NCBI GenBank assembly: GCA_019057795.1
Contig: JAHLWS010000085.1
Span: 1-15,493, forward strand
From: Promethearchaeota archaeon
GTDB lineage: Archaea; Asgardarchaeota; Lokiarchaeia; Sigyniarchaeales; SOKP01
DNA length: 15,493 nt
Direction: 5' to 3'
Of this stretch, positions 2,868-13,383 are shown in pieces (the stretch's first letter is position 1; the number at the start of each line of letters is the position of its first letter). Made by a program: the position numbers and the translations under genes. The notes under the pieces were generated by a model that ran no database searches, had not been told where the DNA came from, and was given only the letters and a program-made list of their open reading frames with translations.

Positions 2868-4058
2868 TTGAAAAACAACGGGGGAGAATTGCTCATAAAG
2901 TTTAATCAAGCGATCAAGATGCGAATTTATCCCACAGGAGTTCAAAAGGAGATGTTAAAAAAAACTTTTGGCTGCTGTCGTCTTTTATGGAATCAAATGT
3001 TAGCAGAACGCAACGGAGTATATCAACTGCTTAAAGAAAACTCAGAAGCTTTAAGAGAACACAAGTATAAAACGGAAAAAGAATACAAAATGGAATTCAA
3101 ATTCATGAAAGAGGTGGACAGTAAAGCGTTACAATCTACTACCCGACATCTATTAGAAGCATTCAACAATTTTTTTAAAGGTCTAAAGGAAACCCGAAAG
3201 GTGGGGTATCCCAAGTTTAAATCAAAGAGAAATAAGCAATCATACACTACATATAACATTAATGCAAATATTAAAATTGATTTTACTAATAAGCGAATTA
3301 AGCTCCCTAAGCTCAAGACATGGATCAAATATCGAGATGATAGGACCTTCGCTGAGCCGATTCGCCACGTAACCGTCTTGAAAACCAAAAGCGGAAAATA
3401 CTTCGTAGCGATTTTAATTGAAAAAGAACTTGATATTGCTCCAATGATCGAGCTTCGGGAAGATCGCATTGGTGCATTTGACATGTCTGCTTCCGAGTTC
3501 TTGGTAGGGGAAGGCGAGGATTTCTGCAATCCACGCTTTTATCGCTCTTCGGAAGCAAAACTTAAACGATTGCATCGTCAATTATCCCGTAAGAAAAAGG
3601 GTTCTCAAAATCGATGGAAAGCCAGACTACGCTTAGTCCGTTATTACGAAAAGATTTTAAATCAAAAACATGATTGGGTACATAAAACTACCTTTAACCT
3701 TGCTAAAAAATATGATGCTGTGATCTTAGAAAATCTCAACATTCAGGCGATGCAGCAATTTAATAGTGGGCTATCCAAATCCGTGTCTTTAGATTTTTCA
3801 TGGCATCAGTTTATAACGATATTGAAATACAAGCTCGAATGGCGGGGAAAATTTTATCAAGAAGTGGGTCGTTTCTTTCCCTCAAGTAAATTATGTTCAA
3901 CCTGTGGATATAAAAATAAGAGTTTAGAATTAGCAGAACGCGAATGGATCTGTCCCGAATGTAGTGTTCATCATCTACGGGATGAAAACACTTCAATTAA
4001 TCTCAAGAAGGAGGGCATTCGTCTCTTACAAGAAAAAGGAATCGTAATCATCACTTGA
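2868..4058 (+). CDS. tnpB: RNA-guided endonuclease TnpB (IS200/IS605 OrfB)
   Basis: N-terminal KMRIYPT..FGCCRLLWNQML (HTH_OrfB_IS605-like), GYPKFKSK, RuvC I (AFDM), RuvC II (ILENL), Zn ribbon CSTC..CPEC, RuvC III (RDENTSINL). The true start may be the in-frame TTG at 2889, after GGGGAG. Confidence 0.96.
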   Translation: MKNNGGELLIKFNQAIKMRIYPTGVQKEMLKKTFGCCRLLWNQMLAERNGVYQLLKENSEALREHKYKTEKEYKMEFKFMKEVDSKALQSTTRHLLEAFNNFFKGLKETRKVGYPKFKSKRNKQSYTTYNINANIKIDFTNKRIKLPKLKTWIKYRDDRTFAEPIRHVTVLKTKSGKYFVAILIEKELDIAPMIELREDRIGAFDMSASEFLVGEGEDFCNPRFYRSSEAKLKRLHRQLSRKKKGSQNRWKARLRLVRYYEKILNQKHDWVHKTTFNLAKKYDAVILENLNIQAMQQFNSGLSKSVSLDFSWHQFITILKYKLEWRGKFYQEVGRFFPSSKLCSTCGYKNKSLELAEREWICPECSVHHLRDENTSINLKKEGIRLLQEKGIVIIT

Positions 4059-11815: not shown

Positions 11816-13006
11816 TTATTTCTTAAGTCTTGCTGAAACCCAATCATAATAGCCTTTATCTTCCATAACTTTTGGAATTTCGGCAAAGAATTGAGCGGTA
11901 ATCTCTTTAACGTGTTTAGCGGCAATTGGGTGGAACATCATGGCAAGATCTAACCCTACAAGCGTCAGAGAAAGAGCATTGATGATTTCCCAAATAGGAC
12001 CTCTGTATTTTCTTAAGCCCCATTGAGGCATTCGCTTCTCGCTCATCCAAGCTTCACGAGCACCCCATGCGTTTGTTGTACCTCCGCTTATTGGATAAGC
12101 TAAATCTGTTTCTCCCAATAATCCCGCTATGCGCATTCTTTGATAAATGCTGAAACTATACTCCATCCCGTATCCTAATTTCGCAGCTACATAAGAATTT
12201 TATGCGTTTTAAGCTGTTGCGCAGGTTGGATCCATGACGATCCTATTACGGGGGAGTCCTAGTTCTAAAGCGTCTTTATTCATCTTAATCTGATTATTTA
12301 AGTCTAAGCTCGTCCAGAGCAAACAATTGTGGTCGTATTTAACTGCTAAGGGAATTACTTCTTCCCAAGTCGCCTTATCTGCAGCTGAAAGCATTAAAAC
12401 TTCGCTTTCTGTCGCAGCGGCAGTAGCTTTAAATAACTCAACATCTTTTTCTTTATTTCCTGAACAACCAATTATGACTGGAACATCAACAGCTTGTAAT
12501 ATCTCTTCTAAGTATTTTACAGATTGTGAAACTGGTGCGTCTCCCATACCTGGATCGATTTCTAACGAGTGGAAAGTAATGCTTTCAGCGCCGAATTTCT
12601 CAACGGCAAATTTTGCCCATTCGGCTGGATCTGCTAAAACTTCTCCGTATGCTTCTTTAATCGGTTTAGGTAACATCATTTTGGAGCCCATGTCAAATAC
12701 ATCGTAAGTAACTAAAGGTGGATTAGGGTTTCTTTTGTCTAAACCAAGAAAATTGTAAAAAGGTGGAACCTTTTCTCCGCCTATTGTTGCTTTCTTTCCG
12801 TTAGAGCGTACAAATTCGACCGTTTCAATGTGTCCGGGAAATTCTATATCAAGAGAGAATTTAGTTGGTGTCCATTCCGCTTTTCCAATTCCAGGTAGGA
12901 CTGCTTGAGCCGCAGCTGAGACAATTCCAGGGAGCATCTGAAACTCTAAGTATTCTGCAAATAATTCTACATCTTGCAATTCAATTTCTTCAGTTTCTTT
13001 CATCAA
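11816..13006 (-). CDS. cdhD: Acetyl-CoA decarbonylase/synthase (CODH/ACS) complex delta subunit (corrinoid Fe-S protein small subunit), intron-interrupted: join(13006..12216,12179..11816), 384 aa from TTG 13006
   Basis: CdhD/AcsD motifs IGGEKVPPF, DPAEWAK, AVDVPVIIG, RIVMDPT-x-LGYGMEY, NAWGAREAW, RGPIWE and AMMFHP. The two track ORFs (12209-13006 and 11816-12166) are in the same frame, separated by a 36-nt insert. Confidence 0.93.
12180..12215 (-). other. Putative 36-nt bulge-helix-bulge (tRNA-type) intron in cdhD mRNA
   Basis: mRNA: CCUG-CGCA-AC^A-GCU...AGC-UGCG-AA^A-UUAGG. A 4-bp helix CGCA/UGCG with two 3-nt bulges; cleavage after the 2nd nt of each bulge yields UGC GCA ACA UUA GGA (C-A-T-L-G). 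Confidence 0.85.
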
Positions 13007-13383
13007 TTTAGCTAATTTTTTACTAATATCATCAAACGAAATTTTGTATCACTTTACTTTATTTATCTTTATTTATATTAATTCGATAGATAGGCTATTG
13101 TTGAATTGAATATAAAATTAATTGATTGGAATTGATCAAGGATCGCCCAAAACATTGTTTTTGCGCTTTTTAGACCAAAAATGCAAGGTAAAATTTTCGA
13201 AAATCGTCATTATTTAAATACTACTCGTGTAGGAATTTCGTCACAAATGATAGATTTTTTATTATAAATATATAAATAGTATTGGTTAAAAAAATGGTTT
13301 CTGGATGCGAGCTATTAAAAGAAGGAGGGTTGGGTGGAGAAAAAATTAAAGTATAGAACATATTGATGAAAATTTCCTTGTTG

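What the first reader, a model, noticed from the sequence alone, without database searches (positions are those of the whole stretch)
12180..12215. Bulge-helix-bulge (tRNA-type) intron inside the mRNA of the Wood-Ljungdahl gene cdhD
SEEN: the minus-strand mRNA reads GAU CCA ACC UGC GCA AC^AGCUUAAAACGCAUAAAAUUCUUAUGUAGCUGCGAA^A UUA GGA UAC GGG AUG GAG UAU. The 36-nt insert holds two in-frame UAA stops and sits in the conserved CdhD motif DPTxxxLGYGxEY. It folds as a BHB: central 4-bp helix CGCA (12221-12218)/UGCG (12185-12182), 3-nt bulges ACA (12217-12215) and AAA (12181-12179), intron-side helix GCU/AGC extended by GCAUAA/UUAUGU, and an imperfect exon-side helix CCUG/U(U)AGG. KNOWN: archaeal splicing endonuclease EndA cuts after the second nucleotide of each bulge and RtcB ligates; BHB introns are typical of tRNA/rRNA, and the classic mRNA case is crenarchaeal cbf5. 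Applying that rule independently gives the in-frame product DPTCATLGYGMEY, and both exons are otherwise undamaged. INFERENCE: this is a spliced protein-coding gene for central carbon metabolism in a probable Asgard archaeon, which pipelines would call a split gene or pseudogene. It may flag a wider hidden class of EndA-spliced mRNAs.
Basis: partly seen in the sequence, partly recalled or inferred. Interest (0 to 1): 0.95.

Follow-up and report, generated by a model that had tools for sequence, protein, structure and literature searches.

The report
tRNA-type intron splits Asgard cdhD
The only gene for the delta subunit of the acetyl-CoA synthase complex in this Loki-type Asgard archaeon is broken by a 36-base insert shaped like a tRNA intron, so its message almost certainly has to be cut and rejoined by the tRNA-splicing enzymes; the papers I could search document this inside an archaeal coding sequence for only one other gene (cbf5).

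Summary
Observation confirmed; interpretation supported by comparative evidence, but splicing of the RNA itself is not shown.

Window 12215-12180 (minus strand) is a 36-nt insert with two in-frame TAA. It sits between adjacent CdhD profile positions, inside DPTCAT|LGYGMEY.

- **Sole copy.** This is the only cdhD in a Promethearchaeota MAG scored 100 % complete. cdhA, cdhC and cdhE are intact elsewhere.
- **Orthologues.** 89 of 100 orthologous loci have no insert and read exactly DPTCATLGYG. Nine genomes and 13 metagenome contigs carry a 36- or 32-nt insert at this site.
- **Cut rule.** Cutting after the second base of each 3-nt bulge restores Thr-Leu in every allele. Two tRNA introns of this genome obey the same rule.
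- **Structure.** 99.5 % of cells pair, five pairs show compensatory changes, and 0 of 500 shuffles match.
- **Exon constraint.** The pairing exon bases (YUG CGCA…UUR) occur in 9/9 insert alleles and 0/72 insert-free ones (7/7 independent pairs).
- **Selection.** Both exons are under purifying selection (dN/dS 0.05-0.08).
- **Enzymes.** Two EndA paralogues and one RtcB are encoded.
- **Weak points.** The exon-side helix is weak, and the one RNA contig lacking the insert comes from an unidentified relative.

This scan has flagged similar mRNA introns before on other DNA of this genome and others. I re-verified one of them (elf1).

The parts
12216..13006 (-). cdhD exon 1 (TTG 13006 or ATG 13003 to ...GAT CCA ACC TGC GCA AC); encodes residues up to DPTCA plus the first two bases of the Thr codon
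   Evidence: ORF 12209-13006; Pfam CdhD profile 7-180; TIGR00381 match 11840-13018
12180..12215 (-). 36-nt bulge-helix-bulge intron, AGCUUAAAACGCAUAAAAUUCUUAUGUAGCUGCGAA, with two in-frame UAA
   Evidence: absent from 89 orthologous loci; homologous 36- or 32-nt inserts at the same site in 8 other genomes and 13 metagenome contigs
11816..12179 (-). cdhD exon 2 (A UUA GGA UAC GGG AUG GAG ... stop); supplies the third base of the Thr codon, then LGYGMEYSFS...
   Evidence: Pfam profile 181-227; the LGYG codons vary only synonymously among insert alleles; the spliced frame ends in the conserved WVSARLKK
12218..12221 (-). central helix H, 5' strand CGCA (exon 1: third base of the Cys codon plus the Ala codon GCA)
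   Evidence: pairs with 12182-12185; CGCA is present in 9/9 insert alleles and 7/72 insert-free alleles
12182..12185 (-). central helix H', 3' strand UGCG (intron)
   Evidence: invariant except the UACG allele (L038, L131, L142, G274)
12215..12217 (-). 5' bulge AC|A; predicted cut between 12216 and 12215
   Evidence: the same AC|A bulge occurs in the tRNA-Ala intron and the elf1 insert of this genome
12179..12181 (-). 3' bulge AA|A; predicted cut between 12180 and 12179 (other alleles have AU|U, AU|A or AG|A)
   Evidence: the third bulge base completes the Thr codon ACN in every allele
12186..12214 (-). intron-side helix h' (GCU 12214-12212 with AGC 12188-12186) extended by the hairpin GCAUAA 12205-12200 / UUAUGU 12194-12189, with loop AAUUC
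   Evidence: MFE folds; 5 pairs with compensatory double changes and 100 % of cells paired
12222..12225 (-). exon-side outer helix h, 5' strand CCUG
   Evidence: pairs with 12174-12178 (U[U]AGG); 100 % of cells paired, with two one-sided changes (C-G to U.G, U-A to U.G); weak, and the register is ambiguous
12174..12178 (-). exon-side outer helix h, 3' strand U(U)AGG

Best explanation
The 36 nt at window 12215-12180 (minus strand) are a bulge-helix-bulge intron in the pre-mRNA of cdhD. This gene encodes the delta subunit of the acetyl-CoA decarbonylase/synthase complex (the corrinoid Fe-S protein small subunit) in a Promethearchaeota (Lokiarchaeia-type Asgard) archaeon.

Inferred mechanism: in the transcript, exon bases CGCA pair with intron bases UGCG to form the 4-bp central helix. 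That helix is flanked by the 3-nt bulges ACA and AAA, an intron hairpin, and a weak exon-exon helix. The heteromeric splicing endonuclease (two EndA paralogues) cuts after the second base of each bulge. RtcB then joins ...GCA AC to A UUA GGA..., giving DPTCATLGYGMEY and a full-length CdhD of about 384 aa. The intron is probably released as a 36-nt circle.

Shown here: the anatomy, conservation of the site and the cut rule across alleles, covariation, selection on both exons, and presence of the enzymes.

Inferred only: the cleavage and ligation themselves.

The intron is old or mobile within one family (two genera) and has been lost or gained at least 7 times on the gene tree.
For: 1. Exact site: the Pfam CdhD profile runs 7-180 and then 181-227 across the break. 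The TIGR00381 model reads through it at 335.5 bits with 2 TAA inside.
2. 89 of 100 orthologous loci have no insert and read DPTCATLGYG(M/L)EY.
3. Nine genomes and 13 metagenome contigs carry an insert at the same site. It is 36 or 32 nt, with at least 13 distinct sequences. The 32-nt form shifts the frame, so read-through is impossible there. Cutting after the second bulge base gives AC+N UUR (Thr-Leu) in all of them, with 3' bulges AAA, AUU, AUA or AGA.
4. The rule was calibrated in this genome: tRNA-Thr (CUUG UA|U...CAAG AC|A) and tRNA-Ala (CUUG AC|A...CGAG AU|U) obey it, with boundaries taken from the cloverleaf model.
5. Structure: 99.5 % of cells pair versus 17-42 % when partners are slid. 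Five pairs show changes on both sides, and 0 of 500 shuffles reach any measure. The BHB conformer is the MFE in 7 of 9 single-sequence folds.
6. Exon constraint: YTG CGCA..TTR is found in 9/9 insert alleles and 0/72 insert-free ones. On the gene tree 7 of 7 independent pairs go the same way, p = 0.0156.
7. Selection: after excision, eight of the nine alleles give 398-409 codon frames ending in the conserved C-terminus; the ninth (L038) stays open until its locus ends two residues short of it. dN/dS is 0.046-0.084, including between two insert alleles at dS 0.4. The LGYG codons between the junction and the next ATG change only synonymously.
8. Necessity: this is the only cdhD in a genome scored 100 % complete. 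cdhA, cdhC and cdhE are intact.
9. Machinery: two EndA paralogues of about 200 aa. One is closest to the crenarchaeal catalytic alpha subunit (3p1z_B, 4e-34). The other is 32 % identical and lacks the aligned His. One RtcB is present. The literature assigns Asgard a broad-specificity (alpha-beta)2 EndA (PMC5829648).
10. Chance: the exact-register core occurs at 5e-4 per random segment.
Against: - No RNA-level proof. The only RNA contig that skips the insert (run X16) is 91.5 % identical to the window and matches no DNA allele in hand, so it may come from an insert-free relative.
- The central helix shows no compensatory change. One allele, seen in at least 3 assemblies, carries a C:A mismatch in it.
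- The exon-side helix is weak and its register is ambiguous, so the 3' bulge may be 4 nt. RNAalifold prefers a competing pairing of the bulge bases CA with UG of H'.
- The co-occurrence of the exon bases with the insert could partly reflect co-transfer of flanking sequence by recombination rather than structural constraint.
- Cutting after the third base of both bulges would give the same protein, so the exact cut position is not fixed by the comparative data.
Confidence: 0.85

Rival explanations
1. Programmed translational bypassing of the phage T4 gene 60 type. The ribosome takes off at the Ala codon GCU (12214-12212), which is followed by UAA. It lands on the GCU at 12187-12185 and continues GCG AAA UUA GGA, so the mRNA is never cut.
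For: A GCN codon followed directly by UAA, and a GCU further downstream, are present in all alleles, with a hairpin between them. A hop does not need a multiple of three, so the 32-nt alleles do not exclude it.
Against: - The matching codons follow automatically from the BHB helices (GCN/NGC plus the U of UGCG).
- The product would carry 3 extra residues (AAK, AAI or similar) inside DPTCAT-LGYG. That stretch shows no length variation in 89 insert-free orthologues or in the solved homologue 4djd_D.
- In the 32-nt alleles the take-off codon (GCA or GCG) and the landing codon (GCU) differ.
- Bypass does not explain CGCA/UGCG complementarity, the constrained exon synonymous bases, or the 3-nt bulge geometry shared with tRNA introns of the same genome.
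Confidence: 0.04
2. Split gene. The two ORFs are translated separately: an N-terminal fragment ending ...DPTCATA, and a C-terminal fragment starting at ATG 12166 (MEYSFS...). The two pieces then assemble into a functional CdhD.
For: The downstream ORF starts with an ATG 13 nt after the insert. Both halves are under purifying selection, which a split protein would also show.
Against: - The four codons LGYG lie between the insert and that ATG. They stay in frame and change only synonymously across alleles, so they are translated as part of exon 2.
- The ATG is simply the Met of the conserved GYGMEY motif, and some orthologues have Leu there.
- This model does not explain the BHB geometry, the covariation or the exon-base constraint.
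- The break lies in the middle of the most conserved motif of the TIM barrel.
Confidence: 0.04
3. Inactivating insertion. This is a pseudogene, or a gene recently disrupted by a small insertion, and it is not expressed as functional CdhD.
For: Two in-frame stops; automatic pipelines would call it broken.
Against: - It is the only cdhD in the genome, while cdhA, cdhC and cdhE are intact.
- The same insert persists in 9 species of two genera with no other lesion.
- dN/dS is 0.05-0.08, including between two insert-bearing alleles separated by dS 0.4.
- Compensatory changes maintain the insert's helices.
Confidence: 0.02
4. Assembly or sequencing artefact, or a DNA-level polymorphism without biological meaning.
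For: Two assemblies (G019, G023) break exactly at this site. In G019 a 77-nt overlapping contig continues without the insert, which suggests mixed populations.
Against: The insert appears in independent assemblies from different studies and assemblers: 9 species-level genomes, 13 JGI/ENA metagenome contigs, and a Logan contig of run X6 at 99 % identity. These carry diverged but homologous sequences.
Confidence: 0.01

Closest known systems
BHB intron in the cbf5 (pseudouridine synthase) pre-mRNA of Crenarchaeota (Watanabe 2002; Yokobori 2009, PMC2738675)
   Same: A short intron inside an archaeal protein-coding sequence, with a bulge-helix-bulge fold at the exon-intron boundaries. It is removed by the tRNA-splicing endonuclease and a ligase, occurs in organisms with (alpha-beta)2 EndA, and shows lineage-specific presence and absence with inferred secondary losses.
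   Different: Different gene (a metabolic enzyme subunit rather than an RNA-modification enzyme) and different phylum (Asgard rather than Crenarchaeota). It is patchier, present in about 9 of 96 genomes of two genera and needing at least 7 changes on the gene tree. Splicing of cbf5 was shown by RT-PCR and in vitro; here it rests on comparative evidence only.
BHB introns of archaeal tRNA genes, especially the heavily interrupted tRNA genes of Asgard archaea (PMC11291895; bioRxiv 10.64898/2026.10.13.758758)
   Same: Same motif and same cut rule. The tRNA-Ala intron of this genome has the same bulges, AC|A and AU|U. Sizes are similar (tens of nt), and the same enzymes are expected.
   Different: [quoted passage not shown] No sequence similarity to other introns of the genome was found.
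BHB intron in the 5' UTR of Haloferax volcanii HVO_1309 mRNA (PMC7714728)
   Same: An mRNA substrate of archaeal EndA, where removal appears to matter for expression.
   Different: It lies in the untranslated leader rather than the coding sequence, in a euryarchaeon with homodimeric EndA.
IRE1/RtcB unconventional splicing of HAC1/XBP1 mRNA in eukaryotes
   Same: A protein-only endonuclease cuts an mRNA at two structured sites. An RtcB-type ligase rejoins the ends, and removal changes the reading frame or product.
   Different: The nuclease family and the recognised structure differ (twin stem-loops rather than BHB), and that event is regulated by stress. No regulation is shown here.
Translational bypass in phage T4 gene 60
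   Same: A short non-coding gap with a stop codon directly after a take-off codon, a hairpin, and a matching codon downstream.
   Different: The predicted bypass product does not match the orthologues (3 extra residues), and the helix and bulge geometry and exon constraint are not explained (see rivals).

Membership tests
Archaeal bulge-helix-bulge (hBHBh') intron / EndA substrate | 4-bp central helix between the two cut sites | tested here: met
   CGCA (12221-12218) pairs with UGCG (12185-12182). It is intact in 12 of 13 distinct alleles; one has a C:A mismatch.
Archaeal bulge-helix-bulge (hBHBh') intron / EndA substrate | Two 3-nt bulges on opposite strands, each 3' of its strand of the central helix | tested here: inconclusive
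   The 5' bulge ACA is clear-cut. The 3' bulge is 3 nt (AAA) only if G12222.U12178 pairs and U12177 bulges out. With the contiguous outer helix CCUG/UAGG it is 4 nt. This fits a relaxed BHB (HBh').
Archaeal bulge-helix-bulge (hBHBh') intron / EndA substrate | Flanking helices h' (intron side) and h (exon side) of at least 2 bp | tested here: met
   h' is GCN/NGC plus a 6-bp hairpin with compensatory changes. h is 4 bp but weak, and varies only through one-sided changes to G.U.
Archaeal bulge-helix-bulge (hBHBh') intron / EndA substrate | Symmetric cuts in the bulges give a functional joined RNA | tested here: met
   Cutting after the second bulge base restores DPTCAT|LGYG in every allele (9 genomes and 13 metagenome contigs), identical to the 89 insert-free loci. 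The same rule fits tRNA-Thr and tRNA-Ala of this genome.
Archaeal bulge-helix-bulge (hBHBh') intron / EndA substrate | Host encodes the splicing endonuclease and an RtcB ligase | tested here: met
   Two PF01974/PF02778 proteins (C69, C74) and one RtcB (C70).
Archaeal bulge-helix-bulge (hBHBh') intron / EndA substrate | Intron is absent from the mature RNA (spliced junction, circular intron) | tested here: inconclusive
   One metatranscriptome contig (run X16) lacks the insert, but it is 91.5 % identical to the window and of unknown DNA state. No raw reads were available.
CdhD / AcsD, delta subunit of acetyl-CoA decarbonylase/synthase (TIGR00381) | Scores above the equivalog cut-off over the full length | tested here: met
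   The locus scores 335.5 bits over profile 3-388 of 389, and the insert-free orthologue L005 scores 350.5 bits, against a cut-off of 252.9. PDB 4djd_D matches at 2e-44.
T4 gene 60-type translational bypass | The bypass product corresponds to the functional protein | tested here: not met
   The hop would add 3 residues to a motif of invariant length.
Group I / group II self-splicing intron | Ribozyme core of hundreds of nucleotides | tested here: not met
   The insert is 32-36 nt.

The most novel reading that the evidence does not exclude
This intron is one visible member of a genome-wide population of EndA/RtcB-spliced micro-introns (about 28-60 nt) in ordinary protein-coding genes of Lokiarchaeia-type Asgard archaea. 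These introns come and go between closely related species. Under this reading, the closest prokaryotic relatives of eukaryotes would routinely express split protein genes through a protein-only splicing pathway, and current annotations would systematically miscall such genes as pseudogenes or fragments. I verified a second case in this genome (elf1). Earlier notes of this scan list many more, including one with RNA support in another genome. My own unbiased scan could not quantify the class.
Probability: 0.55. Interest if true: 0.92.

Novelty: new member of a known kind. Interest (0 to 1): 0.78.

Why it matters
In the papers I could search, archaeal protein-coding genes count as uninterrupted, with cbf5 of Crenarchaeota as the single documented exception (PMC7714728, PMC2738675). 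Here a central carbon-metabolism gene, and the only copy of it, can give a functional protein only if its mRNA is spliced by the tRNA-splicing enzymes. The organism belongs to the lineage closest to eukaryotes.

- **Annotation:** pipelines will call cdhD broken and under-estimate Wood-Ljungdahl capacity in such MAGs.
- **Evolution:** the presence/absence pattern among close relatives gives a tractable system for studying intron gain and loss in prokaryotic mRNAs.
- **Cell biology:** together with elf1, and with the other cases noted by this scan, it points to protein-catalysed mRNA splicing as a regular step of gene expression in Lokiarchaeia. That bears on how split genes could be tolerated before the spliceosome existed.

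Tried and rejected
1. **RNA evidence.** Of four runs laid, RNA run X16 has a 424-nt contig joining 12178 to 12216 with Thr codon ACU. It is only 91.5 % identical to the window. No DNA allele in hand matches its variants (best 13 of 18; best 9 of 18 among insert alleles), so it may come from an insert-free relative. It is not counted as evidence either way. Run X6 (probably DNA, same study) carries the insert at 99 % identity.
2. **Genome-wide scan for BHB motifs whose excision fuses two open frames of at least 50 codons.** There were about 9000 hits at the correct cut and at each of four shifted control cuts. No excess appeared overall or for any bulge, length or helix subset. The scan recovers the cdhD intron but cannot count the class.
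3. **Search for sequence copies of the intron in the genome (blastn-short):** none found.
4. **"A second intact cdhD on C54" (my own early reading).** Rejected. That protein has an Fe-S domain and matches the gamma-subunit equivalog NF003195 at 453 bits, and TIGR00381 finds only the window locus.
A structured pattern over 400 Asgard genomes found only the CGCA/UGCG type.
6. **Contig ends of G019 and G023 at the site.** G019 shows a 77-nt graph overlap with an insert-free continuation. This suggests mixed strains but does not show insert polymorphism.
Pfam matches 1-624 of 645 in one open frame. The lead is neither confirmed nor refuted.
8. **RNAalifold's alternative pairing.** Kept as a possible competing conformer, not as the functional fold, because it leaves the constrained exon bases CGCA unexplained.
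Full report
**1. Observation.**
The minus strand of the window reads GAT CCA ACC TGC GCA AC|A GCT TAA AAC GCA TAA AAT TCT TAT GTA GCT GCG AA|A TTA GGA TAC GGG ATG GAG TAT. The 36 nt 12215..12180 contain two in-frame TAA. They separate a 265-codon ORF (12209-13006) from the rest of the gene (to 11816). Pfam CdhD (PF03599) matches profile positions 7-180 in the first piece and 181-227 in the piece starting at 12178, so the interruption falls between adjacent profile positions.

**2. What the gene is.**
- A full-length insert-free orthologue (L005:1138-2292, 384 aa, 95 % identical) scores 350.5 bits on the CdhD equivalog TIGR00381 (cut-off 252.9). It aligns to the corrinoid Fe-S protein small subunit 4djd_D at 2e-44, with the site inside [20 protein letters not shown].
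- Searching the whole genome (4.95 Mb, 87 contigs, completeness 100 %, contamination 7.5 %) with TIGR00381 finds exactly one locus. It is this one, at 335.5 bits over profile 3-388, with 2 TAA inside.
- The other strong PF03599 hit, on contig C54, initially looked like a second cdhD. It is the gamma subunit CdhE: an Fe-S domain plus the barrel, NF003195 at 453 bits.
- cdhA (1056 bits) and cdhC are intact on other contigs.
- The cdhD gene stands alone among hypothetical membrane proteins, a methyltransferase, a LysR regulator and a TnpB gene.
- Record titles of close relatives name the organism as Promethearchaeota, that is Lokiarchaeia-type Asgard.

**3. Comparison with orthologues.**
- Among 100 orthologous loci, 89 have nothing between TGY and GGN except GCN ACN YTN, and they read DPTCATLGYG(M/L)EY.
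- Eleven loci (nine genomes) have an insert at the same place, either 36 nt or 32 nt.
- A pattern scan of JGI/ENA metagenome contigs added 13 more contigs and four new sequence variants.
- A structured pattern run over 400 Asgard genomes found the insert in 9 genomes, all in one family: 5 of 42 in the window's genus and 4 of 54 in a second genus. The reversed control pattern gave no hits.
- The 32-nt form is not a multiple of three. Stop-codon read-through, or any in-frame reading of the insert, is therefore excluded for those alleles.

**4. The cut rule.**
The RNA is written H(4) - b1 b2 | b3 - intron - H'(4) - b1' b2' | b3'. The window has CGCA AC|A ... UGCG AA|A. Other alleles have AU|U, AU|A or AG|A as the 3' bulge. 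In every allele the joined product is ...GCA AC+N UUR GGN, giving Ala-Thr-Leu-Gly.

I calibrated the rule within this genome rather than from memory. Two tRNA genes have intron boundaries that come from the cloverleaf model, and both obey it with four paired central bases: tRNA-Thr(UGU) on C10 and tRNA-Ala(UGC) on C53. The tRNA-Ala intron even has the bulges AC|A and AU|U.

One caveat: cutting after the third base of both bulges would give the same protein. The comparative data therefore fix the symmetry of the cuts but not their exact position.

**5. Structure.**
- Single-sequence MFE folds recover the central helix, the ACA bulge, the intron helix GCN/NGC and a 6-bp hairpin in 7 of 9 alleles.
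- On 13 distinct alleles, the proposed 17-pair structure is paired in 99.5 % of cells, against 17-42 % when the 3' partners are slid by 1-3 columns. Five pairs have changes on both sides, and none of 500 shuffles reaches any of the five measures.
- All compensatory changes lie in the intron-internal helices.
- The central helix is invariant, apart from one allele with a C:A mismatch (UACG). That allele recurs in at least three independent assemblies, so it is not an error.
- The exon-side helix is weak. It is either CCUG/U(U)AGG with a G.U closing pair and a bulged U, or a contiguous CCUG/UAGG that leaves a 4-nt 3' bulge.
- RNAalifold prefers a competing pairing of the bulge bases CA with the UG of H'.
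- I therefore class the motif as a relaxed BHB (HBh'-like). The literature says that Asgard archaea have the (alpha-beta)2 EndA with the L1 loop associated with broad specificity (PMC5829648). This genome has two EndA paralogues of about 200 aa. One is closest to crenarchaeal catalytic subunits (3p1z_B, 4e-34). The other is 32 % identical and lacks the aligned His. There is also one RtcB.

**6. Exon constraint.**
The exon bases that must pair are synonymous positions.
- Insert alleles always have Cys TGC and Ala GCA (9/9), Thr ACC or ACT before them, and Leu TTR after the junction.
- Insert-free alleles use TGC in 25/72 and GCA in 21/72.
- The full pattern YTG CGCA..TTR occurs in 9/9 insert alleles and 0/72 insert-free ones.
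- On a maximum-likelihood tree of 81 distinct coding sequences, the insert alleles are scattered and need at least 7 changes. The three 32-nt alleles form one clade.
- In 7 of 7 phylogenetically independent pairs, the insert allele has the pairing bases and its insert-free partner does not. The sign test gives p = 0.0156, the minimum attainable with 7 pairs.
- Co-transfer of short flanks by recombination could contribute to this association, so I treat it as strong but not exclusive support for the central helix.

**7. Selection.**
- After rule-based excision, eight of the nine genome alleles give open frames of 398-409 codons ending in the conserved C-terminus (WVSARLKK or similar). The ninth, L038, stays open (399 codons) until its locus ends two residues short of that point.
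- dN/dS is 0.063 and 0.084 between the window and its insert-free sisters, 0.075 for another insert/insert-free pair, and 0.046 between two insert-bearing alleles that differ by dS 0.405.
- The four codons LGYG lie after the junction but before the next ATG. They change only synonymously among alleles.
- This excludes a decaying pseudogene. It also argues against separate translation of a C-terminal fragment starting at ATG 12166.

**8. Chance and artefact.**
In this 31 % GC genome a random 36-nt segment has four Watson-Crick central pairs plus three intron-helix pairs in the exact register at 5e-4, and at 9e-5 with an outer helix. The insert is seen in independent assemblies from several studies and in a Logan contig of run X6 at 99 % identity, so it is not an assembly artefact.

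**9. RNA.**
- Six metatranscriptome runs hold part of the gene. All are kept as contigs.
- In run X16 a 424-nt contig (depth 57) joins 12178 to 12216 with Thr codon ACU. A spliced AUU-bulge allele would give exactly this.
- However, that contig is 91.5 % identical to the window. Its variant letters match no DNA allele I could obtain: best 13 of 18 for an insert-free locus, and 9 of 18 for insert alleles.
- The RNA-level question therefore stays open.

**10. Rivals.**
- *Gene 60-type translational bypass* (GCU UAA ... GCU) cannot be excluded by frame arguments. But its matching codons are a by-product of the BHB helices, and its product would add three residues to a motif of invariant length. 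It also leaves the helix and bulge geometry and the exon constraint unexplained.
- *Split-protein, pseudogene and artefact* readings are contradicted as described in sections 7 and 8.

**11. Wider context.**
- Earlier notes of this scan list candidate BHB introns in other protein genes of this same genome: rpl11, hppA, acs, a 4Fe-4S protein, a chelatase, a thiolase, elf1 and a V4R gene. They also list cases in other Asgard genomes, including cdhD at this same motif and a cdhA case said to have RNA support.
- I re-derived one case from sequence. The only Elf1 gene (C70) reads ...UGC CCA AAC|A GGUAA...UUACC UUGG AU|U GUG GGG, with helix CCAA/UUGG, bulges ACA and AUU, and a 32-nt insert. Excision restores the zinc-ribbon motif FTCPNCGEK.
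- The rpl11 region shows the expected pieces in three frames, but I did not re-derive its helices. The hppA lead was neither confirmed nor refuted.
- My own unbiased ORF-fusion scan gave about 9000 hits at the correct cut and at every shifted control cut, so it is uninformative about the size of the class.
- ARAGORN finds only 18 tRNA genes in this complete-looking genome, 10 of them with intron calls. This is in line with published reports of heavily interrupted Asgard tRNA genes (PMC11291895; bioRxiv 10.64898/2026.10.13.758758).

**12. Literature.**
In the searchable library, a BHB intron inside an archaeal coding sequence is documented only for cbf5 of Crenarchaeota. In addition there is a 5'-UTR case in Haloferax (PMC7714728, PMC2738675). 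The Asgard papers I found deal only with tRNA and rRNA.

**13. Verdict.**
This is a genuine, selectively maintained insert with the anatomy, cut rule and host machinery of a BHB intron, in the sole cdhD gene of an Asgard archaeon. I put the probability that it is spliced from the mRNA by EndA and RtcB at about 0.85. It is a new member of a known but very rare kind. Its main interest is that it is probably one member of a larger, unpublished class.

Noticed in passing
G000:C70:101318-101480 (+), locus L125: The only Elf1 (PF05129) gene of the genome is split by a 32-nt insert with helix CCAA/UUGG and bulges AC|A and AU|U. Excision restores FTCPN|CGEK.
   Followed up: yes
G000:C73:108650-109000 (-), locus L124: The uL11 N-terminal domain is spread over three frames (..GGSASGGPP / GPAVGPTG / INIKDVVDAVNEKT..). 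I did not re-derive the helices.
   Followed up: partly
G000 whole genome: ARAGORN detects only 18 tRNA genes in a genome scored 100 % complete, 10 of them with intron calls and several clearly mis-bounded. Most tRNA genes are probably too interrupted for standard detection.
   Followed up: partly
G019:C10 end / G019:C36:1-77 (L128, L129); G023:C83 start (L130): Two independent assemblies end at exactly ...TGYGC inside the intron site. In G019 a contig with an exact 77-nt overlap continues without the insert, which suggests co-assembled strain variants that diverge right there.
   Followed up: partly
L038, L131, L142, G274:C24 (L270): One 36-nt allele has UACG instead of UGCG, giving a C:A mismatch in the central helix. 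It appears in at least three independent assemblies, and its exons are still intact.
   Followed up: partly
window 12018-12477 (RNA run X16): A metatranscriptome contig (424 nt, depth 57) lacks the insert and reads Thr ACU at the junction. It is 91.5 % identical to the window, and its source allele is unknown.
   Followed up: partly
window 2868-4058 (+): TnpB / IS605 OrfB-type gene (HTH_OrfB_IS605, OrfB_IS605 and Cas12f1-like TNB domains).
   Followed up: no
G000:C31 (+) about 4642: A scan candidate: a 45-nt segment with helix CCGU/AUGG and bulges AC|A and AU|G, between open frames of 480 and 456 codons. Not checked for homology.
   Followed up: no
G000:C56:31605-33584 (-), locus L126: hppA matches Pfam H_PPase positions 1-624 of 645 in one open frame without stops.
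   Followed up: partly
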